A DNA stretch of 64,000 nucleotides from Puniceicoccales bacterium (GCA_031260055.1 JAIRKQ010000006.1:7713-71712), one strand, 5' to 3'. Positions 11,074 to 32,496 are shown, counted from the first letter of the stretch. Translations and numbers: made by a program. Notes: a model not told the origin generated them from the letters alone.

Positions 11074-12162
11074 ATGAATAGGTACGCTATCGTTTGTGGA
11101 GGAACAGGAGGACACTTGGGCCCTGGCATAGCAATCGCCGAAGAATTGATGGCACGGAATGGAGAATGTTTATTGCTTATCAGCGATAAAGTGATCGACA
11201 GTGTCATGTTGAGAAAATATGATCAATTTGAATATATCACACTGCCGGCTAAGCCATTGGCTAAAAATATTTGGAAAATTTTTGAAACAATAAAATCCCA
11301 ACTCGTTTCCCTCTACCAATGTATAAAATTAGTGAAAAATAGAAAAATTGATTGCGTCATAGGTATGGGAGGGTTTACAAATTTTCCAGCGGTCATGGCT
11401 GCATTTTTAATGCGAAAGAAAATAGTTTTGCATGAATCGAATCGAGTAATTGGGAAAAGTATAAAATTACTGGCATACTTAGCCGACATAATTTTCCTCC
11501 CGTCCCAGGTGAATTTTAAAAGTCGATCTTTAAACAAAAAAGTTTCCCATGTGTCCATACCGCTTAGACGGGAGATGCAAAAAATCGATAAATGTGAAGC
11601 TAGGGAACGTCTAGGGTTAGACCCCCATGGGTCCGTGGTAACGGTTCTAGGTGGAAGTCAGGGAGCAGCCGCTCTAAATGAATGGGCAATTCAAAATTTT
11701 CAACGGTTGAATGGTCAAAATCTGGCCGTTTGCTGTGTGCGTGGCATAAAAAATGATAGTCGGGAGGAAATAATCGGTATGTCGGACGATGGCAATACCA
11801 TTAGGAACCTATTTCTTCCTTTTTGTAATGATATGTCGTCACTCCTCAGTGCTACGGATTTGTTAGTGTGCCGGGCTGGTGCTGGGACAATAGCGGAAGC
11901 CATACTTTTTAGATTACCGATGATATTGGTCCCCTATCCGGATGCTGCTGAAAATCATCAGGAAGTTAACGCTACCCATGTGGCCAATGACGGCAGGGCA
12001 ATTGTCGTACGACAGGGGGATATCGATTTGCTCGCGAACATCGTTATCGAGTGCTTTAAGAAAAATCTCAAAAACTTCCAGACAACTCCACCATCAGACA
12101 ACGAACATTCCGCCGTTGAAATTATTGCAAACCATATTCAAAGGATGATAGAAAATGAGTAA
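11074..12162 (+). CDS. murG: UDP-GlcNAc--lipid I N-acetylglucosamine transferase
   Basis: CGGTGGHLGPG, GMGGF, LHESN, GGSQGA, RAGAGT..E, LVPYP.AAENHQ..NA. Confidence 0.95.
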   Translation: MNRYAIVCGGTGGHLGPGIAIAEELMARNGECLLLISDKVIDSVMLRKYDQFEYITLPAKPLAKNIWKIFETIKSQLVSLYQCIKLVKNRKIDCVIGMGGFTNFPAVMAAFLMRKKIVLHESNRVIGKSIKLLAYLADIIFLPSQVNFKSRSLNKKVSHVSIPLRREMQKIDKCEARERLGLDPHGSVVTVLGGSQGAAALNEWAIQNFQRLNGQNLAVCCVRGIKNDSREEIIGMSDDGNTIRNLFLPFCNDMSSLLSATDLLVCRAGAGTIAEAILFRLPMILVPYPDAAENHQEVNATHVANDGRAIVVRQGDIDLLANIVIECFKKNLKNFQTTPPSDNEHSAVEIIANHIQRMIENE

Positions 12163-14311
12163 AAATATTTGTATGCTTGGAATCTGCGGAGCTGGCATGG
12201 CACCGCTGGCAATTTATTTAGTCCAAAGAGGGGACGTGGTTTATGGATGGGATGATTACGTTAATTTGCCAATTAAGGACCTTTTGGTATCCCATGGTGT
12301 TATCTTTATGCCGAAACAACTTCTTCCACCAAACTGTGACTGTGTGGTTCGGTCGAGTGCCGTCAATGAACAGAGCAATAGCGTTTGCCAACGTGCAGCA
12401 AAAGATGGCATTGAGATCTTCCGAAGGGGAGAATTTTTAGCAAAGATCTGCCGGGACAGGAAATTGCTCGCGATTGTGGGATCCCACGGAAAAACTTCTG
12501 TTTCCGGTACGTGTGTGGAAATTCTTAGGCACAATGGCCTAGCCTTCGACTATGTGGTAGGAGGATTCTTTAAGGGGAAAGAAATTCCACCATCCGCCTA
12601 TAACGAAAAATCCGAATGGATAGTGGCTGAAGTTGACGAAAGCGACGGAACCATAGAAAATTTTTCACCGGAATGTACCATTGCTTTGAACTACGACGAT
12701 GATCACATATATAACTACGGCAATCGAGATAATTTTTTAAAAGCATTTGAAAAGCTGTTTGCACAGACAAAGTCGACCATTTTTGTGCCCGAAGACGATA
12801 TAATTTTCACGAACATGGCATCCAATTTTGAAAAAAAGTATGTCAAAATTCAGGGATTGAATGGCGATGATTTCTCCGAAAAAAACAAATCCATAGCGCT
12901 ATTTTGCGTGCGCAGAATTTTCAACAAAGATATTACTTTACCCGATAAAATAACGGGAATTCAGCGGCGAAATGATGTGATGTTTAAAACCGAAAAATTT
13001 GTTTTTCTGAATGACTATGCCCATCACCCAACGGAAATCAATTCGTTGTTGAGATACGCCCGAACCCACTACAGAGACTACGAATTGAACATAATATTTC
13101 AGCCCCACAGGCTATCTCGGACCAAACAATATTTTGCGGAATTCGCAGCAAATTTGGACATGTTTGACAGACCATTTGTCGTCGAACTATATGCCGCATT
13201 CGAGGAAAAAATCGAAGGTGTTTCCAGCAATCTCGTGTTCAATGAGGTAAAAAATCCGAACAAGAAATTTTTAACCCTTTCCCAATTCGAAACCGACATG
13301 CGCGACATCTATAACAGGCTATCCTCATGCGATAAAAAGCAACTAGTGATGTTTGTCGGAGCAGGCAATATCTTGTACCACGCCAAGGCTTTCATCGGCA
13401 AAATCGCATTTGAAGAGGTGAAGAAAGCTTTTAACCAGGCTCGGATAAAATTTGCACCTTTTGAGGATTTGACCCGTGCATTTTCCATAAAAGTACCAAC
13501 ATCTGCCCGAATACATGTAAACCCCGCAACGCACAACGAATTGATCGCAATTGTAAACATTTGCCACAATTTGGGCATTAAGTATGTAATTATCGGCAAC
13601 GGAACCAAAATATTGCCGCCGGATGGAATGATCAACGCAGTTGTAATAACATTGGATTCAGACTATTGGAAATCTCTGGAATGGATTGAAAATGATACTT
13701 TGCGTTGTAAGGCTGGAATTTCTCTCAGAGACTTTTGTAAATCAGTGAGTGGGAAAGGATTTCTGGGAACCGAAAAGCTATCATATATTCCGAGCCATAT
13801 GGGTGGTGCAATCCTTATGAATGCTGGGGCCCATGGACAAACCATATCCGACCATTTAGTATCCATCGAAACTTTGGATCCCAATGGGGTCGTACATACC
13901 ATGGGAAAGGCCGATTTGAGTTTTGGATACCGGACATCTTCCATCACTCGCGACAATATCATTCTCAGTGCAACCTTTCGGTTTAGCGAACAGGCTCCCC
14001 AAGAATACTTTACTTCCATGGCCGAAGAGTTATTAAACTGGCGAAAAACACACCAACCGAAGGGTATCAACTTTGGATCGGTGTTCAAAAATGGAGATGA
14101 TTTCTGTGCCGGTGAATTGATTGATAGGGCTGGACTAAAAGGTGCGAGCATTGGAGGTGCGGCCATTTCCGAGGAGCATGCTAATTTTATAATCAACCGG
14201 GGGAACGCATCTTTTCGGGACATTGAAAAGCTCATAGATTTAGCGAGGTATACGGTGTACATAAAATTTGGAAAGTTTCTAAAAACGGAAGTAAATATTT
14301 TAAGAGCTTAG
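12155..14311 (+). CDS. murC-murB: Fused UDP-N-acetylmuramate--L-alanine ligase / UDP-N-acetylenolpyruvoylglucosamine reductase (MurC-MurB)
   Basis: N-terminal half: GICGAGM, GSHGKTS, EVDESDG, DYAHHPTE, FQPHR (MurC). C-terminal half: GNGT, GGAILMNAGAHG, YRTS, QP..NFGSVFKN, HANFIIN (MurB). One continuous frame. Confidence 0.93.
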   Translation: MSKNICMLGICGAGMAPLAIYLVQRGDVVYGWDDYVNLPIKDLLVSHGVIFMPKQLLPPNCDCVVRSSAVNEQSNSVCQRAAKDGIEIFRRGEFLAKICRDRKLLAIVGSHGKTSVSGTCVEILRHNGLAFDYVVGGFFKGKEIPPSAYNEKSEWIVAEVDESDGTIENFSPECTIALNYDDDHIYNYGNRDNFLKAFEKLFAQTKSTIFVPEDDIIFTNMASNFEKKYVKIQGLNGDDFSEKNKSIALFCVRRIFNKDITLPDKITGIQRRNDVMFKTEKFVFLNDYAHHPTEINSLLRYARTHYRDYELNIIFQPHRLSRTKQYFAEFAANLDMFDRPFVVELYAAFEEKIEGVSSNLVFNEVKNPNKKFLTLSQFETDMRDIYNRLSSCDKKQLVMFVGAGNILYHAKAFIGKIAFEEVKKAFNQARIKFAPFEDLTRAFSIKVPTSARIHVNPATHNELIAIVNICHNLGIKYVIIGNGTKILPPDGMINAVVITLDSDYWKSLEWIENDTLRCKAGISLRDFCKSVSGKGFLGTEKLSYIPSHMGGAILMNAGAHGQTISDHLVSIETLDPNGVVHTMGKADLSFGYRTSSITRDNIILSATFRFSEQAPQEYFTSMAEELLNWRKTHQPKGINFGSVFKNGDDFCAGELIDRAGLKGASIGGAAISEEHANFIINRGNASFRDIEKLIDLARYTVYIKFGKFLKTEVNILRA

Positions 14312-20820: not shown

Positions 20821-21933
20821 ATGAATACAAAAAAAAAGACATTTGCTATCTTAATAGCGATTATTGGATGTTTAATTTCTAGTTTTAATTCGAAGCTCGC
20901 TACTGCTGCGATAAATATAAGAGACACGGACGACGAAGCTGAGATTTCTAGACTCATCTCAATTTTTATTGATGGAGCAATATTCCCAACGATGAGTGCT
21001 AATAATTTGCTGACCAGTGCTCTCTTTAGCCATATGACAAATACCAAAGGCTGCCTCTCCAATCCATTTGTCCATGCCATCTATGGTCATAGTCAGAATG
21101 AAGTCATCGCAGAGTATGGTTTCAAAAACGACATATATGGTTATATCCTAGGAGTTGACAATGTTTGGATTTCGGTCGACGAAAAGTATTTCCGCCTGGG
21201 CACTGCCCTAGGGTATGCTCACGGTAAAGTTGCTTCTGTTGGAACAATAATCACGGGCAGTTTCCTCGAGTTAAATTTTGGAGAAGGCGACACGGATTAT
21301 AGCCATGACGTTCACACGGTGAAACTATTTGCTGCCTATGAATCGTTTAATGATAAACGTTTGAAGACTAACATTGGGATTATTTTTGGATATAACTACG
21401 ACATAAATAATTCGCTTGGGAAGAACTCCCTCGAATTTACATCCCACAGCTTCTCCCTAGGAATGAAATTTATAAAAAATCTATATGCCTACAACGGATA
21501 TCAGTTTGGATTATGGCTTCAAACAAACTATAATTTCATTTTCCGAAATACAGACGGAAATAAATTAAGTAGATTTCAAGATGTTGACTTTATCCTCAAA
21601 TCGGGCTATAATTCTCTCGTCACCGTCATCGGCCTTAATGTGGAAAAAGAAGCCTTCAAACATGCCGACAGAAAATTGATACTGTCTTTGAAAACTGGAT
21701 GGGAATGCCCAGTAATGCAACGTACCGACGCCGTTTTGTTTTTGACTGTTACTGCTAACGAACACTATGGGGTTTTTAAATTTAGACGCCCAGTCAAGGA
21801 TGTCGTCATTGTATCATTTAATGCCTCACAAAAGTTGAATAATCACTGGAGCATTGTCGGGTCGTATTCTGCAAGGTTTAACAAAGACTTTTCAGCCCAT
21901 AACCTTTCCGGTGGAGTTGAATATGCTTTTTAG
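20821..21933 (+). CDS. Autotransporter beta-barrel protein AT1 with essentially no passenger
   Basis: Signal peptide MNTKKKTFAILIAIIGCL..., short helical linker, alternating aromatic beta strands, C-terminal GGVEYAF (BamA beta-signal). Confidence 0.85.
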   Translation: MNTKKKTFAILIAIIGCLISSFNSKLATAAINIRDTDDEAEISRLISIFIDGAIFPTMSANNLLTSALFSHMTNTKGCLSNPFVHAIYGHSQNEVIAEYGFKNDIYGYILGVDNVWISVDEKYFRLGTALGYAHGKVASVGTIITGSFLELNFGEGDTDYSHDVHTVKLFAAYESFNDKRLKTNIGIIFGYNYDINNSLGKNSLEFTSHSFSLGMKFIKNLYAYNGYQFGLWLQTNYNFIFRNTDGNKLSRFQDVDFILKSGYNSLVTVIGLNVEKEAFKHADRKLILSLKTGWECPVMQRTDAVLFLTVTANEHYGVFKFRRPVKDVVIVSFNASQKLNNHWSIVGSYSARFNKDFSAHNLSGGVEYAF

Positions 21934-21995: not shown

Positions 21996-23104
21996 ATGAT
22001 GAATATAAAGGAGAAGAAGATATTTGTTATCTTGATGGTGATTGTTGGGAGTTTAATTTTTAATTTTAATTCGGAGCTTGCTGCTCTTTCAATTCAAAGA
22101 ATGGGCATGCCGCTAAAATCCGATATTTCTGAAATCGTCTCAATTTTTACTGATGGAACAATGTTCCCAATAGTGAGTACTAATAATTTACTGACCGATG
22201 TGCTCTCTGGCCGTATGACAAATATCAAAGGCTGCCTCGCCAATTCATTTGTTCATGCCATCTATGGTCATAGTCAGAATAAAGTCGTAGCAAAGTATGG
22301 TTTCAAAAACAATATATATGGTTTCATCCTAGGAATTGACGATGTTTGGGTATTTGCCAACGAAAAGTATCTTCGTCTGGGTGCTGCCCTAGGGTACACT
22401 CACGGGGAAGCTATTTCTGTCAACACAGTAAGTGTGGGCAAATCCCTCCGCATCAAATTCGAAGAAGGCGACATGAATTATAACCATGACGCCTACACAG
22501 TAAAACTATTTTGTGCCCATGAATCGTTTAATGATAAACGTTTGAAGACTAACATTGGGATTATTTTTGGATATAACTACAACAGAAGTAATTTGGTTGA
22601 GCGGATGTTGCCCTTCGAATATACATCCCATGGCCTTTCCCTGGGAGTGGAATTTATAAAAATCTATACGCCTACAACGGATATCAGTTCGGATTATGGC
22701 TCCAAACGAACTGTAGTTTCATCTTCCGAAATGCAAATGGAAAAGGATTGCAAAAGTTTGACCTTACCCTCAAATCGGGCCATAGTTTTTTCACTACTGT
22801 CGTCGGCTTTAATGTGGAAAAAGAAACCTTCAAACATGCCGACAGAAAATTGATACTATCTTTGAAAACTGGATGGGAATACCAAGTAACGCCACCTACT
22901 ATCACCGCTTCGGCTCTGGACCTTATCGTTGACAAAGTCTACGGGGCTTTTAAGTTTAAACACCCCGCCCAGGATGCTGCCATCGTCTCACTCAATGCCC
23001 TACAAAGGCTGGACCACTGGAGCATTGTCGGGTCGTATTCCGTAAGATTCAACAAAAACTTATCGGCCCATGGTCTCACCGGCGGTGTTGAATATGCTTT
23101 TTAG
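21996..23104 (+). pseudogene. Autotransporter beta-barrel paralog AT2, frameshifted by a 1-nt deletion in an A-run
   Basis: The split ORFs 21996..22853 and 22748..23104 together reconstruct a full AT1 paralog. The A-run at 22658-22662 is A5, versus A6 in AT1 (21474-21479) and AT4 (27919-27924). Confidence 0.85.
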
Positions 23105-23310: not shown

Positions 23311-26300
23311 ATGGGTAAAAAAATTCTTGTTGCCGCAGCGATTATGGTTTGTTTAATTTTTTGCCGTGGTTCAGCATCCGTTGACCCCCTAAACAGAGTC
23401 ATAGGTGAACTGAAGGACTCCACCGAATTCTGGTCAATGGAGGCTCCCGACAGGACGAACGCAGTCACATTTGAAAATAATGGCTCCATATCGGTTGCCT
23501 CCATTGCGGGAGATATCGACAGTGGAATCGCAGCCAATGTTGAGTTTTCTAGCTCTGAGTTCCCTGAAAATGATAAGAAAAACTCCCTGCTCACCGTAAC
23601 ATTTAATAACAATCCCAGCGTTGAAACGGGAGTGATTAATTTCAGGAATCCTAACTATAATATCATGGCCCATATCTATGCGTACAACACAACCACCGGC
23701 CAGTCTGCCGTGGACATTAACCTCGCTGAAGGCGTAAACCTGTCCATTGCTGAAGACGGCACCCATCATCCTGTGCTGGTGGCATATTCTAATGTTACTG
23801 GTACTGAGGATGATGGCAATTCTGTCGCAACCGCCATTCAGGCTGCGAATACAAATTCTGTTACTATCGAAAACCTGGCATCCTTAACCGCTGTTTCTCT
23901 TTTTAATTCTAATTTTAATTCTGATTCTTTTTCCGCAAGTGCTGGGATTGGGGCAGCGGCGGCGAATGACAGTAGCAACAGCAGTGTGGAGGGCCTAAAT
24001 GTAACATTTGGGGATGGCAATATCCTAACCTCTTCTTCTAGTTCTATTAATGTTGCACCTGTTTTTACTTCTTCTGGTAATTCCGCAAGTGCTGGGATTG
24101 GGGCAGCGGCGGTAAATGACGACACTGGCAACAGCGAGGTGAAGGGCCTAAATGTAACATTTGGGGATGGCAATATCCTAACCTCTTCTTCTATTGGTTT
24201 TCCTGCCGGTGTAAGTGCTGGGATTGGGGCAGCAAAGGCGAATGGTAACAGCACGGCGAATAATCTAGACATACGATTTGAGGACAACAACGGCCTAGCC
24301 GCTTCTTCTTATGGTACTCATTCCGCAAGTACTGGGGTGGGGGCAGCCTCGACGAGTGATAGCGCAGCAACAGCAGTAACGGGACTATACGTGCAATTTC
24401 AGAATGACAACGGCCTAACCGCTTCTTCTTATTCTTATGATACTTATTCCGCAAGTACTGGGGTGGGGGCAGCCTTAGCAAGTAATAGCACGGCCAGCAC
24501 GGCCAGCTCCGTTAGGGTAAACATGAACGGTAATCAAAGCATTAGCGCATTGGCCTGTGTTCAAAGTAATCCTTCCAATGCTAAAGTCAACGCCTTCGGT
24601 GCCGACAACACGGATGCGGGCGATGATTTTGGCTGGCGCGTGGGCATATTCGCCGCCGGGGAAGACATTGTTGTAGAGGAAGATGATGAGACTACCATCG
24701 CCAGAGCCATAAATGTGAATTCCACGGTAAATATTTTGGCCGCAAAACTAGGAAAAGAGTGGGAGATTACGGACGGCGTTGCCACTGCAACCCTGGGAGG
24801 TAATCAAGGGACCAGCAGTGCCGATTACGCCCGCGCATTCGCATTGGGCAATGATTTCCAAATTTACATCGGTGGAATGGCCGACCCGGATACCCATGGA
24901 TTTACGCCTGTCTCGGCGCTTGCAGGAACCATCAACGTCGTCAACATAATCGGTGCCATCAGCAGGGGCCGAGATTCTGCTGCAACTACCGGTTCCAGCC
25001 TCACCATCGACAATGCTTGGACGGTGAATACCTACGGCCCCGTTCAAGATCTCGCAAACATTGAAATAAAAGGTGGCGGCGAGTGGAATGTCTATGGGCC
25101 CGCTGAAGGCCTTTCCGACATCCATGTTATGTCGGGTGTTCTCCACATTGCAAAGGATACAAATTATACAAATTTTAACGGTGTCATTGGACAAATTCAG
25201 GATAAAATAACATACGTGGATCCCATAACGAGGGTATCATGCAGAGGTGGTGACGGGGAGATTGGAATAAATGCCGATAATTACCCGTGGAATGGTTCTT
25301 CCGGTGGAAGTTTGGCCTTAGGTGCAGGCCATAGACTTGTCCTCTACGTCGATAGCTCCCAAATGGAAAGCATACAAACACCTTTCTTGGAGAAATTTAG
25401 ACTGGTAACTGGATACGTATCCATCGATGCTGGGATGGAAAATGCGTTAGTCTTTAACGGTGGTAAAATTGCCCTTGCCAACGATTCCAACGGGGATTCC
25501 GCAACAGTCAACTATTGGTTGATCCGGTCCGGGGCAAATGAAAGTGTTGAAGCCGTTGCTGAGATGTTGGGGATGAAAGATTCTTTTGATCCCAACAATT
25601 TTGTGCAGGAAAATGTCAACCTGTTCAGATTATCCGATACTTATGCGGCTTCCCTTTTTGAAGAAAGTTTTTCGGAATATGAATGGTTAGACGGAGAATC
25701 GGCCGTATATCTGTTTAACGATCAAGAGCACGGAATCAGTGGATTATACATAGGAACTGAGCTGGAACAATCCGATGATTTCCTGGGAGAAGTCTATGCC
25801 AATGTGGAACTGGCAGCCCTGACAGTGACGGCCCATAATTTACTTACCAATGCCATCTCCGACCGTCTGACACGGGTAAAAGGTTGTCTTGCTGACCCAT
25901 TTATCTATGCTATCTATGGCCATGCCCATCAAGACGAGCTTACCAGGAGGGGATACCGTAGTAACATGGGCGGTTTTGTCCTGGGTGCTGACAATGTGTG
26001 GGATTTTCCCAATGAAAGATACATCCGTATCGGTGCTGCCTTTGGATATGTCCATGGGAAGACAAAGTTTTCCGATTCCATCGTCGACGCTAAAGAATCC
26101 ACAAAGCATGATATTTATGTGGTAGAACTTTTCGGGGCCTACGAGTTCTTCAACGACAAGCAATTGAAGACCAACGTTGGGGTTACCTTTGGCTATGGCC
26201 GTGGTAATGATACGCTGGATTTAGGTGCCAATGTTAGTGGTACTGGATCTAGAGACACTAAAATTAAATCTGATAATTTTTTCGCGGGCATAGAATTTCT

Positions 26301-26769
26301 CAAGAACCTGTATGCGTACAAGGGATGTCATTTCGGGTTGTGGCTCCGGGCAAATTACAACCACGTTGCCCAGAAAGAACATGAGGAAATGGTAACAGCC
26401 CTAATGGGAATGCAACATGTTTCCTCCGTTAACCACAATTTCCTCACCACCGTTCTTGGTCTCAACCTTGAAAAGGAAATCCTCGATGCGGAATATGCCG
26501 ATAAGAGATGGTTATTATCCCTAAGGACGGGTTGGGAATGCCAAGCGCTGCGGAAACATTCCGACGCCACCATCACATTTGATAATGACTTTGGCGGAGG
26601 TAAAATCAAGCCTGTCTATGGTCAACCCGGCAAAAATGCTGCCATTGTGATCCTTGGAATTTCCAAAAAGTTGAACACTAACTTGAGCATGGTCGGTTCC
26701 TACACAGGAAGATTTAACAGAGAAATCTCCAACCATAGCCTTTCCTGTGGCGCTGAGTATTCCTTCTAG
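23311..26769 (+). CDS. Autotransporter AT3 with an ~800-aa repeat-containing (probably beta-helical) passenger
   Basis: Signal peptide, Asn/Ser/Gly/Ala-rich passenger with repeats, the same linker and barrel as its paralogs (LLTNAISDRLTRVKGCLADPF), C-terminal GAEYSF. Confidence 0.9.
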   Translation: MGKKILVAAAIMVCLIFCRGSASVDPLNRVIGELKDSTEFWSMEAPDRTNAVTFENNGSISVASIAGDIDSGIAANVEFSSSEFPENDKKNSLLTVTFNNNPSVETGVINFRNPNYNIMAHIYAYNTTTGQSAVDINLAEGVNLSIAEDGTHHPVLVAYSNVTGTEDDGNSVATAIQAANTNSVTIENLASLTAVSLFNSNFNSDSFSASAGIGAAAANDSSNSSVEGLNVTFGDGNILTSSSSSINVAPVFTSSGNSASAGIGAAAVNDDTGNSEVKGLNVTFGDGNILTSSSIGFPAGVSAGIGAAKANGNSTANNLDIRFEDNNGLAASSYGTHSASTGVGAASTSDSAATAVTGLYVQFQNDNGLTASSYSYDTYSASTGVGAALASNSTASTASSVRVNMNGNQSISALACVQSNPSNAKVNAFGADNTDAGDDFGWRVGIFAAGEDIVVEEDDETTIARAINVNSTVNILAAKLGKEWEITDGVATATLGGNQGTSSADYARAFALGNDFQIYIGGMADPDTHGFTPVSALAGTINVVNIIGAISRGRDSAATTGSSLTIDNAWTVNTYGPVQDLANIEIKGGGEWNVYGPAEGLSDIHVMSGVLHIAKDTNYTNFNGVIGQIQDKITYVDPITRVSCRGGDGEIGINADNYPWNGSSGGSLALGAGHRLVLYVDSSQMESIQTPFLEKFRLVTGYVSIDAGMENALVFNGGKIALANDSNGDSATVNYWLIRSGANESVEAVAEMLGMKDSFDPNNFVQENVNLFRLSDTYAASLFEESFSEYEWLDGESAVYLFNDQEHGISGLYIGTELEQSDDFLGEVYANVELAALTVTAHNLLTNAISDRLTRVKGCLADPFIYAIYGHAHQDELTRRGYRSNMGGFVLGADNVWDFPNERYIRIGAAFGYVHGKTKFSDSIVDAKESTKHDIYVVELFGAYEFFNDKQLKTNVGVTFGYGRGNDTLDLGANVSGTGSRDTKIKSDNFFAGIEFLKNLYAYKGCHFGLWLRANYNHVAQKEHEEMVTALMGMQHVSSVNHNFLTTVLGLNLEKEILDAEYADKRWLLSLRTGWECQALRKHSDATITFDNDFGGGKIKPVYGQPGKNAAIVILGISKKLNTNLSMVGSYTGRFNREISNHSLSCGAEYSF
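23932..24510 (+). repeat. Five imperfect in-frame passenger repeats of 114-150 bp
   Basis: SASAGIGAA / SASTGVGAA motif starts near 23932, 24082, 24208, 24322 and 24448. Units 1 and 2 share a ~50-bp identical block (gggcctaaatgtaacatttggggatggcaatatcctaacctcttcttcta). Confidence 0.9.
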
Positions 26770-26868
26770 AAAATAGAAAGGCCAGGGGTCTTTTTTAGAA
26801 CGTGTTTAGCCCGTTTTCCATAAATTTACGAAATTTTCGCAAAATCCGTAAATTTTCGTAAATTTTCA

Positions 26869-26896
26869 TTGACAAGTGGAAAGTATTAACTATTCT
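26869..26896 (+). promoter_or_regulatory. Putative sigma70 promoter of AT4, preceded by an inverted repeat
   Basis: TTGACA-16 nt-TATTCT; GGAGG RBS at 26909-26913; 15/16 inverted repeat at 26822-26837 and 26850-26865. Confidence 0.5.
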
Positions 26897-26920
26897 CATC
26901 GCCTCATAGGAGGGTAGAAT

Positions 26921-28372
26921 GTGGACATTTGGGGCAAAGGACATTTGGGGCAAAGGACATTTGGGGCAAAGGACATTTGGGGCAAAGGACATTTGGGGCA
27001 AAGGACATTTGGGGCAAGAATTTCTGTCCTTTTGGTGGCAATCATTGGGTGCCTATTTTTTTATCCCAACTTGAATACTTATGGTGAACCCGGAACTTCT
27101 GTTGAGCCCGGAACTTCTGGTGAGCCCGAAACTTCTGGTGAGCCCGGAACTTCTGGTGAGCCCGGAAGTGTTGGGTCCCAAGGATCAGGTGATAACAATG
27201 GGGACAAGGACGAGAACTCTGATAGCGATAGCCTTATAGACAAATTAAAGGAATTAATAGGACCGAAAATAAAAGAATCAGCGAAAGAAGCCATCCTTCC
27301 TGGCGCCATTGCCATCATTTCTCCATTTCTTGGGAATGAGCTGGCATCCTTGACAGTGATTACCAATAACTTACTGATCAATGCAATCTCCAGCCGTATG
27401 ACAAATGTCAAAGGCTGCCTCGCCGATCCATTTGTTCATGCCATCTATGGCCACATGCATCGGAATATCATCTCAGAATGCGGCTACAAGAACGATATGT
27501 ATGGTTTTGTTCTAGGGATTGATAATGTTTGGTCGCTTAGCCACAAAAAGTATTTTCGCCTGGGCACTGCCCTAGGGTATATTCACAGAAAAATAATACC
27601 TTACGGTACTCTTTCCAGAGTAGGATATACTCCCGATACCACCTTCAGTTTAGATCCTGAACAATTCATTGCAGGTAACGACAATAATGTCTATGCAATA
27701 AACCTGTTTAGTGCCTATGAATCGTTCGATGATGAATGTTTAAAGACTAACATCGGGGTTATTTTTGGATATAACTACAGCAGAGATAAATTCAATATGG
27801 GGAATTTCTACATACCCGAGCTGGGGTTGCCTTCGGATATATTGACGGTATTGAAGATGGTTAGGCTATCCTACATCGAATTTGAATCCAATAGCATTTT
27901 CCTGAGAATAGGACTGATAAAAAATCTACATGCCTACGAGGGATATCAATTTGGCCTATGGCTTCAGGCAAACTATAATTACATCTGCCAGCGTAATAAA
28001 CTGTTACATTTGCTAGGTCATGATATTATAACTGACTATAATTTTCTTACCACCGTCATCGGCCTTAACATTGAAAAAGAAGCCTTCAAACGTGCCGACA
28101 AAAAATTGACATTTTCTTTGAAAGTTGGATGGGAATTCCAAGTAATTCAAAATTTCGATGTTCTCTATACTGTCGCCACTTTTGCTTCTGCTGCTTTCTT
28201 TAACGACGCTAACAAGTTCTTGAGGTATCCCGTCAGAAACACTGCCGTCATATCATTCAATGCTTCTCAAAAGCTGGATGATCACTGGAACATCAGTGGG
28301 TCCTATTACGCAAGATTCAATAAAGACCTTTCGTCCAATAATTTCTCCATTGGCGTTGAATATGCCTTCTAG
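26921..28372 (+). CDS. Autotransporter AT4 with a short passenger and a VNTR in its signal-peptide coding region
   Basis: In frame from GTG 26921; the overlapping ATG 26919 is out of frame and stops at 27072-27074. Signal h-region ISVLLVAIIGCLFF, GEPGTS repeats, shared barrel, C-terminal GVEYAF. Confidence 0.85.
   Translation: MDIWGKGHLGQRTFGAKDIWGKGHLGQRTFGARISVLLVAIIGCLFFYPNLNTYGEPGTSVEPGTSGEPETSGEPGTSGEPGSVGSQGSGDNNGDKDENSDSDSLIDKLKELIGPKIKESAKEAILPGAIAIISPFLGNELASLTVITNNLLINAISSRMTNVKGCLADPFVHAIYGHMHRNIISECGYKNDMYGFVLGIDNVWSLSHKKYFRLGTALGYIHRKIIPYGTLSRVGYTPDTTFSLDPEQFIAGNDNNVYAINLFSAYESFDDECLKTNIGVIFGYNYSRDKFNMGNFYIPELGLPSDILTVLKMVRLSYIEFESNSIFLRIGLIKNLHAYEGYQFGLWLQANYNYICQRNKLLHLLGHDIITDYNFLTTVIGLNIEKEAFKRADKKLTFSLKVGWEFQVIQNFDVLYTVATFASAAFFNDANKFLRYPVRNTAVISFNASQKLDDHWNISGSYYARFNKDLSSNNFSIGVEYAF
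26923..27017 (+). repeat. 16-bp tandem repeat GGACATTTGGGGCAAA, five perfect copies plus one 15-bp copy
   Basis: Units start at 26923, 26939, 26955, 26971, 26987 and 27003; no spacers. Confidence 0.97.
27083..27172 (+). repeat. 18-bp in-frame tandem repeat encoding (G/V)EP(G/E)TS, about five copies
   Basis: Consensus GGTGAGCCCGGAACTTCT; units at 27083, 27101, 27119, 27137 and 27155 (last one degenerate). Confidence 0.95.
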
Positions 28373-28430
28373 GACACTATAGGACAGAATCTGAAATTTA
28401 CTCCTAGATCCAGATCTCATAAAAGCTAAT

Positions 28431-28476
28431 GGGTAAAGATGAAAAGATAAAAGAAAATCTTTTCATCTTTTTACCC
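28431..28476. terminator. Long hairpin after the autotransporter array (probable intrinsic terminator)
   Basis: GGGTAAAGATGAAAAGAT-8 nt loop-ATCTTTTCATCTTTTTACCC. Confidence 0.6.
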
Positions 28477-28575
28477 GTCCTTCCCTTAGCTAGTGTATTT
28501 CTAAAAAACTGATTGGACGATTGGCAATGAAATTTAACCGTTGTATTCCCATGTGAATTTTATATTGGTTCTTTC

Positions 28576-30160: not shown

Positions 30161-30610
30161 ATGGAGTATACGGAAGCAGTAGATATAGTTTCTGAGCTTT
30201 TTAGAATAAGCCAATGGGCTAGTAATGAGTATGGCGAAAAGTATGCCATCCTAGACAATGATATTGAGATTCGGATATTTCAGTCGGCCAGGGATAAAAT
30301 GGTAATACAGGGAATGTTCGGGGAACCCATCCAAAACCTATCGGCAGCGAATGCAAGCGAAGTAAAGTTTCGTTATCTTCTTCAGGCCAATTTTATTAGA
30401 ATTATCCAATACGATGATGTTTTATCCATAGATAAACGCACAAATCGATTAACTACGACACGACATATTTCTTTATTTGGAACTTCCATGGAAAAAGTCC
30501 TCGATGTGGTCGAATCTTTTATCAAAAATGTAGACTTTTGGGATATGGCCTTGAAAAGGAAGCAATCGTTTGCTACAGTATCTCCTCTATTGAAATTTTC
30601 TCTAAAATAA
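30161..30610 (+). CDS. Type III secretion chaperone, CesT/YscB-like
   Basis: ~150 aa, acidic, with the LLQANF...LSID motif and a C-terminal amphipathic helix (VESFIKNVDFW). Its stop overlaps the sctC start (TAATG). Confidence 0.7.
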   Translation: MEYTEAVDIVSELFRISQWASNEYGEKYAILDNDIEIRIFQSARDKMVIQGMFGEPIQNLSAANASEVKFRYLLQANFIRIIQYDDVLSIDKRTNRLTTTRHISLFGTSMEKVLDVVESFIKNVDFWDMALKRKQSFATVSPLLKFSLK

Positions 30611-32496
30611 TGGGAATAGTAAAAAAGTTTTTTCAGTTTGCATTGATTTTCGTCTATTGTGCACTCTACGCAGAAGAAAGAGATCCCATTGGCGTCTCGC
30701 CATATGGGGCACTTCCCTTTTCAAAGTCGAGTTATTACCACTTTGCCAAGGACCAAAATTTATCTGCCCTCATTCAAGACTTTTTTTCCATGCAGGGTAT
30801 AACCGTTGTGATCAGTGATAGAATAAATTATACCGTAAATGGCAGGTTCAGTAAAATGGATCCGGCAGAATTTTGGAGTTACATAACCAAGGCCTATGGG
30901 TTGGTTTGGTTCTTCGACGGTAAAATAATGTTTGTCTATACAAATTCCGAGCTGCAAACACAGATTTTCAGGATGGATCCGGATGGAATTGGCACATTGT
31001 CTGTGATTCTATTACGCCTAGGATTTATTGCTTCCGATTTTTCGTTTCGAGCTGTCGGCGAAGCAAATGTTCTAATAGTAACTGCACCTCCTCAGTATAT
31101 TGACGTGATAAACGACATAGCAACCAAGTTTGTCCCAAGTAAGATTTCTGACACCACCATTGTGAAAATCATACCGTTAAAATATGCCTGGGCCTACGAT
31201 ATGACTTTTAACTATGCCAATGGTTCGATTTCCGTCCCCGGTGTCTCAAGTTTATTACAAAGTATTATTACGGGCCAGCAATTATCAGCGGCGTTCTCTC
31301 CTTTCAATGTTAATGTAGGAGCAAATCAGAAGCAAGTAGAATATCAGCAGATGGTAGGGGTGCTCGACGATACCCCTCCATACGCAAAAGACATAAATAA
31401 CAATATCAAGAATATGCAAAAGGATGGGAAAAATTCCGACAAGGGCAAAAATGACAAATCTTCGGGAGACAAATCGTCCAGCGATGGTAACAGCATAGAT
31501 ATTTCAGGAACTTCTTTGCCTGGATTTATAACCTGTGATCAGCGGTTAAATGCGATAATAATTCGCGATAGACGGGAAAATATGCCATTTTACGAAGAAA
31601 TTATATCGAAACTCGATGTACCATGTGAAGTTATAAAAATTGACGTTGCTATCGTAGACGTAAATAAAACCTCTTCCCTTGTTTTTGGGCTTAGTGGCAT
31701 TAGCGCTACCCTTTCCAATGGGAAGCCGATTGGTATTTCGATGTCAAAAACCGACCTCAATGCGACAGCCGTTGCTAACTTGGCCTCAACTGGCTCAATT
31801 GCTGGGAAATTGGGTATAGCAAAAAATGCCGAGATAAGTTATGCTATTGATGCTTTGGAAAAAAGCAGTAATGGGCAGGCAGTTTCTCGACCATCCGTTC
31901 TAACACTCGATAACGTCGCAGCAATTTTAGAGACCGATAAAGTACACTACGCTACAGTATCAGGAACAAATAATTCGAACGCATATACCCAATCTGCAAC
32001 TACCAAGTTACAGGTTGTTCCACATATCATTCCGGGAGATGTTGATGAAAATGGTAAGCGTAAAATGAAGCTATTCGTTGACATATCCGACGGAAGTTTT
32101 GAGGTCAATGAAGAGGGTGACGAAACCTCTACTGTAACCCAACACTCCCTGAATACGCAATCCGTACTGTACGAAGGGCAGAGCTTAGTCATAGGAGGCT
32201 ATGACTCGGAAATAAACCAAAAAAAGGATAATGGAATCCCTGTATTGCAGCATTTTCCACTAATAGGAACTTTGTTCAAGCATACGACTAATAGCAAAGA
32301 AGTCAAAGAACGCATTTACATAATTTCTCCATCCGTCATAGAAATTCGCAGCGATGACCATAAGCACGATAGATTCGTCCAAAATGGGCAGCTCACAGCC
32401 GAAGGAACCCTTGAAGCTGACAATTATCCGTTAACCATCCCATGGCCAAAAGAAAAACGTCCTAAGCCTAAACTATTTAGAACAAGAATCGATTGA
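30610..32496 (+). CDS. sctC: Type III secretion outer-membrane secretin SctC (YscC/HrcC family)
   Basis: Signal peptide; N0 domain YHFAKDQNLSALIQDF...VNGRF...AYGLVWFFDG.IMFVY.NSE; LKYAWAYD; DQRLNAIIIRD; secretin core SRPSVLTLDN..A; IPVLQHFPLIGTLFK. Confidence 0.92.
   Translation: MGIVKKFFQFALIFVYCALYAEERDPIGVSPYGALPFSKSSYYHFAKDQNLSALIQDFFSMQGITVVISDRINYTVNGRFSKMDPAEFWSYITKAYGLVWFFDGKIMFVYTNSELQTQIFRMDPDGIGTLSVILLRLGFIASDFSFRAVGEANVLIVTAPPQYIDVINDIATKFVPSKISDTTIVKIIPLKYAWAYDMTFNYANGSISVPGVSSLLQSIITGQQLSAAFSPFNVNVGANQKQVEYQQMVGVLDDTPPYAKDINNNIKNMQKDGKNSDKGKNDKSSGDKSSSDGNSIDISGTSLPGFITCDQRLNAIIIRDRRENMPFYEEIISKLDVPCEVIKIDVAIVDVNKTSSLVFGLSGISATLSNGKPIGISMSKTDLNATAVANLASTGSIAGKLGIAKNAEISYAIDALEKSSNGQAVSRPSVLTLDNVAAILETDKVHYATVSGTNNSNAYTQSATTKLQVVPHIIPGDVDENGKRKMKLFVDISDGSFEVNEEGDETSTVTQHSLNTQSVLYEGQSLVIGGYDSEINQKKDNGIPVLQHFPLIGTLFKHTTNSKEVKERIYIISPSVIEIRSDDHKHDRFVQNGQLTAEGTLEADNYPLTIPWPKEKRPKPKLFRTRID

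What the first reader, a model, noticed from the sequence alone, without database searches (positions are those of the whole stretch)
26909..27074. 16-bp VNTR behind overlapping ATG/GTG starts: candidate three-state phase-variation switch on autotransporter AT4
Seen: a GGAGG RBS (26909-26913) is followed by ATGTG, giving ATG at 26919 and GTG at 26921 (5 and 7 nt from the RBS). Six copies of GGACATTTGGGGCAAA follow (last one 15 bp), then the signal-peptide h-region. With 6 copies the ATG frame stops at 27072-27074 (51 aa) and only the GTG frame reaches the barrel. Because 16 mod 3 = 1, copy number N sets the frame: N=1,4,7 uses the ATG, N=3,6 uses the GTG, and N=2,5,8 uses neither. With N=1 the ATG gives MWTFGARISVLLVAIIGCLFF..., matching the paralog signal peptides (…LIAIIGCLI…), so one copy is probably ancestral. 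Established: slipped-strand phase variation of surface proteins typically uses short 1-9-bp units. Inference: a 16-mer combined with a dual overlapping start could give ON / weaker ON / OFF control of a surface protein.
Basis: partly seen in the sequence, partly recalled or inferred. Interest (0 to 1): 0.85.

Follow-up and report, generated by a model that had tools for sequence, protein, structure and literature searches.

The report
16-bp repeat frame switch in autotransporter
A perfect six-copy 16-base repeat sits just after the start codons of an outer-membrane autotransporter gene in a Puniceicoccales (Verrucomicrobiota) genome, and it is very probably a slippage-driven expression switch of the familiar "phase variation" kind with an unusually long repeat unit, though switching within a population has not been shown.

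Summary
GGAGG (26909-13), ATG 26919, GTG 26921 and 5.94 perfect copies of GGACATTTGGGGCAAA (26923-27017) are all there. The ATG frame stops at 27072-74. The GTG frame runs 483 codons into an intact autotransporter-like barrel gene.

One correction: a TTG at 26929, inside copy 1, opens the third frame. Every copy number therefore links some start codon to the gene: ATG for N=1,4,7, GTG for N=0,3,6,9, and TTG for N=2,5,8. A true OFF state is not certain.

The new evidence comes from related loci in Puniceicoccales MAGs. They carry the same element with other copy numbers:
- one degenerate copy, ATG in frame;
- a 1.5-copy proto-repeat in a syntenic orthologue;
- two copies, with only the TTG frame open;
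- at least five copies, with the contig breaking inside the array.

The unit is identical in all arrays, although the flanks are only about 70% identical.

This fits slipped-strand translational phase variation in DNA encoding the signal peptide, as in AutA/AutB, Opa and licA. The 16-bp unit is the unusual part.

Within-population switching and use of GTG or TTG are untested. The family also shows plain decay: frameshifts, and a deletion in the nearest relative. My confidence is about 0.55. I rate it a new variant of a known kind.

The parts
26869..26896 (+). Sigma-70-type promoter of AT4: -35 TTGACA (26869-74), 16-nt spacer, -10 TATTCT (26891-96). The transcription start is inferred at about 26903, giving a 5' UTR of about 16 nt.
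   Evidence: Promoter scan, 10 of 12 matches. The scan as a whole is not enriched over shuffles. However, TTGAC(A/G) followed by 16 nt and TAyyCT is conserved at the same place in homologous and paralogous loci.
26909..26913 (+). GGAGG Shine-Dalgarno-like motif
   Evidence: CATAGGAGG is invariant in the window, L002 and L003. Caveat: only 6 of 32 window genes have an SD core.
26919..26921 (+). ATG start, 5 nt after GGAGG. In frame with the gene when N = 1, 4, 7, 10. At the present N=6 it opens a 51-codon dead-end ORF (26919-27074).
   Evidence: The same ATG is the gene start in the one-copy homologue L002.
26921..26923 (+). GTG start overlapping the ATG, 7 nt after GGAGG. In frame when N = 0, 3, 6, 9. 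It is the only start near the RBS that reaches the gene in the assembled N=6 state.
   Evidence: The equivalent GTG is the only possible start of the homologue in L011.
26929..26931 (+). TTG inside repeat copy 1, 15 nt after GGAGG. In frame with the gene when N = 2, 5, 8. A possible weak third start.
   Evidence: The two-copy allele L003 reaches its 413-codon ORF only from this TTG.
26923..27017 (+). Tandem array: 5 full copies of GGACATTTGGGGCAAA plus one 15-nt copy, all identical. It is open in all three forward frames, each of which reads the same cyclic 16-aa peptide TFGAKDIWGKGHLGQR.
27017..27076 (+). Rest of the signal peptide: R + ISVLLVAIIGCLFF (h-region) + YPNLN. It is homologous to the N-termini of the paralogues.
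   Evidence: No signal-peptide predictor was available.
27077..27167 (+). Second, in-frame tandem repeat (18 bp x 5.1, 91% matches) encoding (E/S)PGTSG units of a short passenger or linker.
26921..28372 (+). AT4 reading frame as assembled, 483 codons. Layout: repeat-encoded N-terminal extension, signal peptide, low-complexity linker, long helix (about residues 116-160), 12 predicted beta-strands (residues 171-482), C-terminal ...VEYAF.

Best explanation
The 16-bp array is a hypermutable tract (a contingency locus) in the DNA that encodes the n-region of the signal peptide of a small autotransporter-type outer-membrane protein.

Proposed mechanism:
1. Replication slippage or unequal exchange between the identical copies adds or removes 16 bp, which shifts the frame by one.
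2. This changes which of three closely spaced start codons is in frame with the gene: ATG 26919, GTG 26921 or TTG 26929.
3. Cells with N=1,4,7 would make the protein from the strong ATG.
4. Cells with N=0,3,6,9 must use the GTG that overlaps and competes with the ATG. The assembled state, N=6, is in this class.
5. Cells with N=2,5,8 depend on a poorly placed TTG and are low or OFF.
6. The repeat-encoded peptide lies upstream of the hydrophobic core, carries a net positive charge, and is removed with the signal peptide. The mature surface protein is therefore the same in every state and only its amount changes.

Shown: the anatomy, the frame arithmetic, the copy-number differences among related loci and the intactness of the gene.

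Inferred: slippage at a useful rate, the relative start-codon strengths, cleavage of the signal peptide and any selective benefit, for example varying a surface protein seen by a host or a phage.
For: (1) The array is a perfect 5.94-copy repeat with a unit not divisible by 3, placed 2 nt after the start codons. It is the strongest tandem repeat in the window.

(2) Frame simulation shows that each residue class of N couples a different start codon to the full-length ORF.

(3) The gene behind it is intact. It keeps all 30 invariant columns of a 30-member family alignment. It also has its own conserved promoter.

(4) Related loci differ in copy number and in frame state.
- L002 has one degenerate copy and is ON from ATG.
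- L013, a syntenic orthologue, has only a proto-repeat: ATTTGG twice, 16 bp apart.
- L003 has two copies. Its ATG frame stops after 16 codons and only the TTG frame is open.
- L004 has at least 4.8 copies and its contig ends inside the array.
- The window has six copies.

(5) All copies in all three arrays (95, 31 and 76 nt) are identical. The 90-nt flanks are only 68-73% identical, and the single-copy allele differs at 3 of 15 positions. This pattern is expected if arrays keep turning over or are kept perfect.

(6) The ATGTGGA dual start is retained in three lineages, which use ATG (L002), GTG (L011) or GTG (window).

(7) No RNA structure (z = +1.05) and no Rfam family offers another role.

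(8) There is precedent for the design:
- AAGC repeats in the signal-sequence DNA of the autotransporters AutA and AutB (PMC5118866).
- CTCTT repeats in the Opa signal peptide and two starts in mod (PMC3899988).
- Three licA start codons upstream of the CAAT repeats (PMC2992063).
Against: - There are no read-level or population data. The alleles compared are 12% (L002/3/4 to each other) to about 33% (to the window) diverged, so the copy-number differences could have accumulated slowly.
- No other carrier was found. Exact-pattern scans of the genome and metagenome collections and a repeat-peptide protein search found nothing, and the window's own contig is not retrievable.
- Sixteen bases is outside the 1-9 bp range for which slipped-strand phase variation is documented (PMC5953494). 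The slippage rate of six 16-mers is unknown.
- The same gene family shows ordinary decay:
  - AT2 in the window has a 1-bp frameshift.
  - The orthologue in L013 is broken by a 13-bp duplication.
  - The nearest relative (L031, GlyRS 92% identical) has lost the gene, leaving only a 3' relic.
- SD usage in this genome is low, so the relative use of ATG, GTG and TTG is guesswork.
Confidence: 0.55

Rival explanations
1. Non-adaptive minisatellite in a dispensable, decaying gene family. Short tandem duplications and indels arise by ordinary mutation in a host-associated genome. The 16-bp array is one such accident that happened to expand. Copy-number differences among lineages are slow drift, and the present N=6 state is simply a half-disabled gene.
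For: - AT2 next door is frameshifted by 1 bp in an A-run.
- The syntenic orthologue in L013 carries a frame-breaking perfect 13-bp tandem duplication.
- The closest relative lacks the gene altogether.
- Only alleles diverged by 12% or more could be compared.
Against: - The 462-codon body of AT4 is intact and keeps every family-invariant residue.
- Arrays with the identical unit persist in three loci whose flanks are about 30% diverged, with not one substitution in 202 nt of array. This is hard to get from drift alone.
- The array sits exactly where frame changes are reversible and harmless to the mature protein.
Confidence: 0.25
2. Assembly error in copy number. The repeat is real but N is mis-estimated. 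For example, the true N could be 4 or 7, in which case the gene is plainly ON from the ATG and nothing unusual is happening in this genome.
For: - Short-read de Bruijn assemblies handle tandem arrays poorly.
- L004 breaks inside the array.
- Related MAG contigs carry k119-style names, and arrays longer than about 7 copies would exceed such a k-mer (inference).
Against: - A 95-bp array is shorter than a 119-mer or a 150-nt read, so it can be spanned directly (inference; the window's assembler is unknown).
- The same array occurs independently in two other assemblies with other N.
- An error in N would change the current state, not the nature of the element.
Confidence: 0.1
3. Stable N-terminal extension. 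The GTG-initiated protein with a 32-residue repeat-encoded, positively charged n-region is the normal product, comparable to the extended signal peptides of some autotransporters, and copy number is effectively fixed.
For: - The GTG frame is open and the extension has net positive charge.
- GTG is the start in homologue L011.
Against: - A 16-bp unit cannot be gained or lost without a frameshift.
- Relatives have 1, 2 or at least 5 copies, including an out-of-frame two-copy allele.
- No protein in a 5.8-billion-sequence database carries the repeat peptide, so it is not a conserved domain.
Confidence: 0.07

Closest known systems
Neisseria meningitidis autotransporters AutA/AutB (AAGC repeats), with Haemophilus Lav (GCAA repeats)
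   Same: Tandem repeats not divisible by 3 lie inside the DNA that encodes the signal sequence of an autotransporter. Repeat number sets the reading frame, and strains differ in repeat number (PMC5118866; PMC9022572 abstract).
   Different: Their unit is 4 bp, with 2-32 copies, and variation within clonal complexes has been measured. Here the unit is 16 bp with 1-6 or more copies. The host is a Verrucomicrobiota gut-associated MAG, and variation is seen only between diverged loci.
Neisseria Opa proteins (CTCTT pentamer) and Helicobacter pylori OipA (CT dinucleotide)
   Same: A coding repeat lies in the signal-peptide region of an outer-membrane protein family with several paralogues, each with its own tract (PMC3899988; PMC10564699 abstract).
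   Different: Their units are short. In Opa the repeat encodes the hydrophobic core itself. Here it encodes the charged n-region upstream of the core.
[quoted passage not shown]
   Same: Several start codons in different frames lie immediately upstream of the repeat tract, so different repeat numbers engage different starts and can give graded expression (PMC2992063; PMC3899988). The graded-expression point for lic1 rests on my own knowledge of Weiser et al. 1989.
   Different: licA uses a 4-bp unit and separate ATGs. Here the ATG and GTG overlap (ATGTG) and the third start is a TTG inside the first repeat unit.
Streptococcus pneumoniae cap3A reversible tandem duplications
   Same: Frame-breaking tandem duplications much longer than a microsatellite unit arise inside an ORF and are precisely removed again, giving ON/OFF variation (Waite et al. 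2001 as cited in PMC11163986). The 13-bp duplication in L013 looks like this kind of event.
   Different: Those are two-copy duplications at varying positions, not a standing multi-copy array at the start codon.
Mycobacterium tuberculosis promoter tandem-repeat copy-number variation
   Same: Long-unit tandem repeats whose copy number varies within isogenic populations and between lineages were overlooked by short-read data (PMC12817950).
   Different: Those repeats act on promoter strength. Here the array is downstream of the promoter, RBS and start codons and acts on reading frame.

Membership tests
Repeat-mediated translational phase variation (contingency locus) | Tandem repeat tract, with a unit not a multiple of 3, inside the 5' part of the reading frame | tested here: met
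   16-bp unit x 5.94 copies at 26923-27017, starting 2 nt after the GTG.
Repeat-mediated translational phase variation (contingency locus) | Repeat number determines whether the gene is in frame with its start codon | tested here: met
   In-silico series N=0-10. The real alleles L002 (in frame from ATG) and L003 (ATG frame stops after 16 codons) show both outcomes.
Repeat-mediated translational phase variation (contingency locus) | Copy number polymorphic among related strains or loci | tested here: met
   1, about 1.5, 2, at least 5 and 6 copies in L002, L013, L003, L004 and the window. These loci are 12-33% diverged, so they are not strains of one clone.
Repeat-mediated translational phase variation (contingency locus) | High-frequency, reversible change within a clonal population | not testable with these tools
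   No reads are available. The window's contig and its proteins are not retrievable from the collections. A contig break inside the array in L004 is only suggestive.
Repeat-mediated translational phase variation (contingency locus) | Simple-sequence unit of 1-9 bp, as used in phasome surveys | tested here: not met
   The unit is 16 bp. PhasomeIt thresholds and reported Neisseria units stop at 9 bp (PMC5953494). It is therefore not an SSR in the strict sense, but a minisatellite-size variant that would work the same way.
Multiple-start translational switch (licA type) | Two or more start codons in different frames immediately upstream of, or at the edge of, the repeat tract | tested here: met
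   ATG 26919, GTG 26921 and TTG 26929, one per frame.
Multiple-start translational switch (licA type) | Different starts give different expression levels | not testable with these tools
   There is only indirect support that GTG can be used: L011. SD usage in the genome is low.
Classical (type Va) autotransporter | C-terminal autotransporter beta-barrel domain (PF03797 / TIGR01414) | tested here: inconclusive
   - PF03797 scores 22.7 bits, below the gathering score of 26.
- TIGR01414 scores 22.4 bits, above its cut-off of 16, E = 5.5e-5.
- Many homologues have precomputed PF03797 hits and NCBI autotransporter names.
- The AF2 model is weak (pLDDT 56) but shows a long helix followed by 12 strands.
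- The Foldseek top hits are the BrkA, NalP and EspP beta-domains, but with TM of 0.35 or less.
- A PDB profile search finds nothing.
Classical (type Va) autotransporter | N-terminal Sec signal peptide and C-terminal aromatic residue | tested here: met
   A charged n-region, the hydrophobic ISVLLVAIIGCLFF and the C-terminal ...VEYAF are read from the sequence and shared by the family. No dedicated predictor was run.
Classical (type Va) autotransporter | Substantial secreted passenger domain | tested here: not met
   Only about 100 residues of low-complexity or repeat linker lie between the signal peptide and the helix. The paralogue AT3 (1154 aa) does have a long N-terminal part.

The most novel reading that the evidence does not exclude
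The locus is not an ON/OFF switch. It is a three-level translational 'volume control' with no null state. A minisatellite-sized (16-bp) array rotates one unchanged mature surface protein between ATG, GTG and TTG initiation, one start per reading frame. The array is kept perfectly homogeneous by selection for mutability across lineages whose flanking DNA has diverged by about 30%. This would be the first contingency locus described in Verrucomicrobiota, in a likely host-associated symbiont.
Probability: 0.2. Interest if true: 0.7.

Novelty: new variant of a known kind. Interest (0 to 1): 0.5.

Why it matters
Phase variation by coding repeats is documented almost entirely in a few pathogens, and surveys look only for units of 1-9 bp.

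A working 16-bp frame switch would show that genome scans miss a class of contingency loci. It would extend the phenomenon to Verrucomicrobiota living in animal guts. It would also give a natural example in which all three reading frames are served by start codons of different strength.

On the practical side, it warns that gene callers and short-read assemblies mis-annotate such genes. Homologues were called from internal ATGs, and contigs break in the array.

If it is only a decaying gene, it is still a clean example of how a minisatellite is born from a 6-bp direct repeat spaced 16 bp apart.

Tried and rejected
- Exact look-ups of the window's AT4 (V- or M-initiated), GlyRS and AT1 proteins in the assembly index returned nothing. 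No alternative assemblies of the same locus could be compared.
- Exact DNA scans for start+repeat, repeat+junction and two-copy patterns gave only one chance hit, in Paenisporosarcina. The scans covered genome contigs and metagenome contigs.
- A protein search with the cyclic repeat peptide gave no hit at E <= 10.
- The closest homologues by protein identity (P0001, P0003) sit on contigs that end before the N-terminus, so they are uninformative.
- The idea that the array forms a regulatory RNA structure or belongs to a known RNA family was rejected. The fold is no better than shuffles (z = +1.05) and there is no Rfam hit.
- The idea that the array changes promoter spacing was rejected. The conserved -35/-10, the GGAGG and the start codons all lie upstream of it.
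- A lipoprotein reading of ...IIGC... was considered and left open. The Cys and Gly are replaced in paralogues (IIWC, VGS, IGY).
- Structure prediction gave only a low-confidence model. It is used only for strand count, not as proof of fold.

Full report
**1. What is in the sequence**

The stretch reads ...TTGACA-16 nt-TATTCT...CATAGGAGGGTAGAATGTG, followed by five full copies of GGACATTTGGGGCAAA and a sixth copy of 15 nt, then GAATTTCTGTCC....
- TRF reports period 16, 5.9 copies, 100% matches and score 190 at 26923-27017. This is the best tandem repeat in the window. The repeat finder gives the same register.
- The 16-mer is not found elsewhere in the window.
- The ATG at 26919 opens a 51-codon ORF that ends at 27072-74.
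- The GTG at 26921 opens a 483-codon ORF that ends at 28372.
- The third frame opens with a TTG at 26929 and stops at 27087.

It omitted only the TTG.

**2. The gene**

The 483-aa product has these parts:
- the repeat-encoded stretch;
- a hydrophobic segment, ISVLLVAIIGCLFF;
- an in-frame 18-bp repeat linker (EPGTSG units, 27077-27167);
- a C-terminal domain ending in VEYAF.

The evidence for the autotransporter assignment is as follows.
- TIGR01414 (autotransporter barrel) is hit above its cut-off, and PF03797 just below its gathering score.
- 31 database homologues are almost all named autotransporter beta-barrel proteins of 'Puniceicoccales bacterium' MAGs.
- A weak AlphaFold model (pLDDT 56) shows a long helix followed by 12 strands.
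- Its best Foldseek matches are the BrkA, NalP and EspP beta-domains, but with low TM-scores.

I call it an autotransporter-type outer-membrane protein with a very short passenger. Membership is likely but not proven.

The window holds three paralogues upstream:
- AT1 at 20822-21933;
- AT2 at 21997-23103, broken by a 1-bp deletion in an A-run at about 22657;
- AT3 at 23311-26769.

Each has its own TTGAC(A/G)-16-TAnnnT promoter-like site. Nearby genes include a T3SS secretin (SctC), BamA, MutL and a MurC-MurB fusion, together with glycyl-tRNA synthetase (GlyRS). GlyRS is 92% identical to that of a Puniceicoccales MAG. These place the window in a host-associated-looking Verrucomicrobiota genome.

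**3. Frame arithmetic**

I rebuilt the locus in silico with N = 0-10.
- Full-length product arises from ATG for N = 1, 4, 7, 10.
- It arises from GTG for N = 0, 3, 6, 9.
- It arises from the TTG in copy 1 for N = 2, 5, 8.

Three units make 48 nt, so all three frames read the same cyclic 16-aa peptide, which has no stop codon and a net positive charge. Any N therefore gives only a longer n-region ahead of the same hydrophobic core.

**4. Relatives: the key evidence**

Encoding contigs were fetched for the homologues whose N-termini looked odd.
- L002 (P0008, in MAG Nc350_bin44) has GGAGGATAAGATGTGGACACTTAGGACAAGAATTTCT. That is one degenerate copy, and the ATG is in frame (MWTLRTRISALRG...).
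- L003 (P0007) has GGAGGAGATATGGACATTTGGGGCAAAGGACATTTGGGGCAAGAATTTCT, two perfect copies. Its ATG frame stops after 16 codons. The 413-codon frame is reachable only from the TTG in copy 1. The gene caller had fallen back on an internal ATG.
- L004 (P0009) begins inside the array with 4.8 perfect copies, so N is at least 5, and the assembly broke there.
- These three genes are about 88% identical to each other in DNA and about 67% identical to AT4 in the barrel.
- L013 (MAG Gx481_bin23) is a syntenic orthologue, with an AT3-like gene upstream and a conserved intergenic region. It has no array. It has only TATTTGGGGCAAAAGACATTTGG, in which ATTTGG occurs twice, 16 bp apart, read as MRYLGQKTFG. 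This is a plausible seed for the first slippage. The same gene is broken further on by a perfect 13-bp tandem duplication.
- L011 (P0005) has the same GGAGG...ATGTGGA start but no array. Its ATG frame stops after four codons and the 373-codon gene starts at the GTG. The GTG of this motif is therefore a credible initiator.
- In the closest genome available, L031 (Cd354_bin103), flanking DNA is 86% identical, but the autotransporter cluster is absent. Only a relic of about 130 nt of a barrel 3' end lies in front of glyS.

**5. An observation I cannot fully explain**

The 90-nt flanks on either side of the arrays are only 68-73% identical among the window, L003 and L004. Yet all 202 nt of array in the three loci are copies of one identical 16-mer. 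The single-copy allele differs at 3 of 15 positions.

Continuous turnover homogenises the copies within an array. Identity between arrays, however, suggests either constraint (coding, or selection against interrupted arrays) or exchange limited to the array.

**6. Interpretation**

The anatomy is that of a translational phase-variation tract in signal-peptide DNA. Three features point this way:
- the promoter, RBS and start codons all lie upstream of the array;
- the frame-shifting unit sits in a part of the protein that is discarded;
- the gene behind it is intact, keeping all family-invariant residues.

No RNA structure or known RNA family competes as an explanation.

The design has direct precedents:
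- AAGC repeats in the signal-sequence DNA of the meningococcal autotransporters AutA and AutB (PMC5118866);
- CTCTT repeats in Opa and two starts in mod (PMC3899988);
- CT repeats in oipA;
- GCAA repeats in Lav;
- the three start codons ahead of the CAAT repeats in licA (PMC2992063).

What differs is the unit length. Surveys and known cases stop at 9 bp (PMC5953494; PMC2651432). Longer reversible frame-breaking duplications are known only as two-copy events (cap3A) or in promoters (M. tuberculosis).

From general knowledge, loops of this size escape mismatch repair, and short tandem arrays rearrange by RecA-independent slippage. This is an inference and was not tested here.

**7. Caveats**

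- Nothing here measures switching. The alleles compared are old relatives.
- The family also shows plain decay: the AT2 frameshift, the L013 duplication and the loss in L031. A non-adaptive minisatellite in a dispensable gene therefore remains a serious rival.
- Only 6 of 32 window genes have an SD core upstream, against about 8% of random 15-mers. Arguments from SD spacing are therefore weak. If the first AUG dominates, the assembled N=6 state may be close to OFF.
- The true N in the source population is unknown.

**8. Verdict**

- The best explanation is slipped-strand translational phase variation or modulation, with confidence about 0.55.
- It is a new variant of a known kind: 16-bp unit, three starts in three frames, Verrucomicrobiota.
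- Interest is moderate (0.5) until read-level data exist.

Noticed in passing
window 21997-23103 (indel at about 22657): Paralogue AT2 is 79% identical in DNA to AT1 but has a single-base deletion in an A-run (A5 versus A6 in AT1). This shifts the frame at AT1 residue 219, and the barrel continues in another frame to 23103. It is either a pseudogene or a homopolymer-slippage state.
   Followed up: yes
window 20829-20837: AT1 has an A9 run in codons 3-6 of its signal peptide (MNTKKKTF). Many family members encode K/R-rich n-regions with A-runs at this spot. However, A8-A10 runs are common in this genome: 17 in the window.
   Followed up: partly
window 26815-26867: An A/T-rich element just upstream of the AT4 -35 box. 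It has a 10-bp periodic TAAATTTTCG (4.9 copies) and an inverted repeat, AAATTTACGAAATTTT / AAATTTTCGTAAATTT, that is 94% complementary. Similar TTTACGAAA/TTTGCAAAA motifs precede the -35 in L002, L003, L013 and other paralogues. It may be an operator or an UP element.
   Followed up: partly
L013 1687-1713 (JAISBO010000032.1, MAG Gx481_bin23): The syntenic orthologue of AT4 is split by a perfect 13-bp tandem duplication (ATGACAAATGTCA x2) in the conserved SRMTNVKGC region. The gene caller restarted at the second ATG (P0014). This is a second frame-breaking short tandem duplication in the same gene lineage.
   Followed up: yes
L031 3611-3767 (JAIRMM010000020.1, MAG Cd354_bin103) versus window 26660-28500: The nearest relative has 92% identical GlyRS and 86% identical DNA over glyS-sctC. 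It lacks AT4 and the cluster at this site. Only a relic of about 130 nt of an autotransporter 3' end precedes glyS, with YidC and YebC-like genes upstream.
   Followed up: partly
window, L003 and L004 arrays versus their flanks: The 16-nt unit is identical in every copy of three arrays, although the flanks are about 70% identical and the single-copy allele L002 has 3 of 15 changes. This is unexplained (see notebook).
   Followed up: partly
window 30538-32496, 12155-14311 and genome-wide start contexts: A type III secretion secretin (SctC, TIGR02516, 337 bits) and a fused MurC-MurB ORF occur in a Puniceicoccales-like genome. Only 6 of 32 genes have an SD core of 4 nt or more upstream, whereas the autotransporter paralogues all do.
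   Followed up: no
window 28431-28476: An imperfect long hairpin (GGGTAAAGATGAAAAGA ... TCTTTTCATCTTTTTACCC) lies between the AT4 stop and glyS, and L031 has a hairpin at the corresponding position. It may be a terminator, but it has no T-run and the scan did not call it.
   Followed up: no
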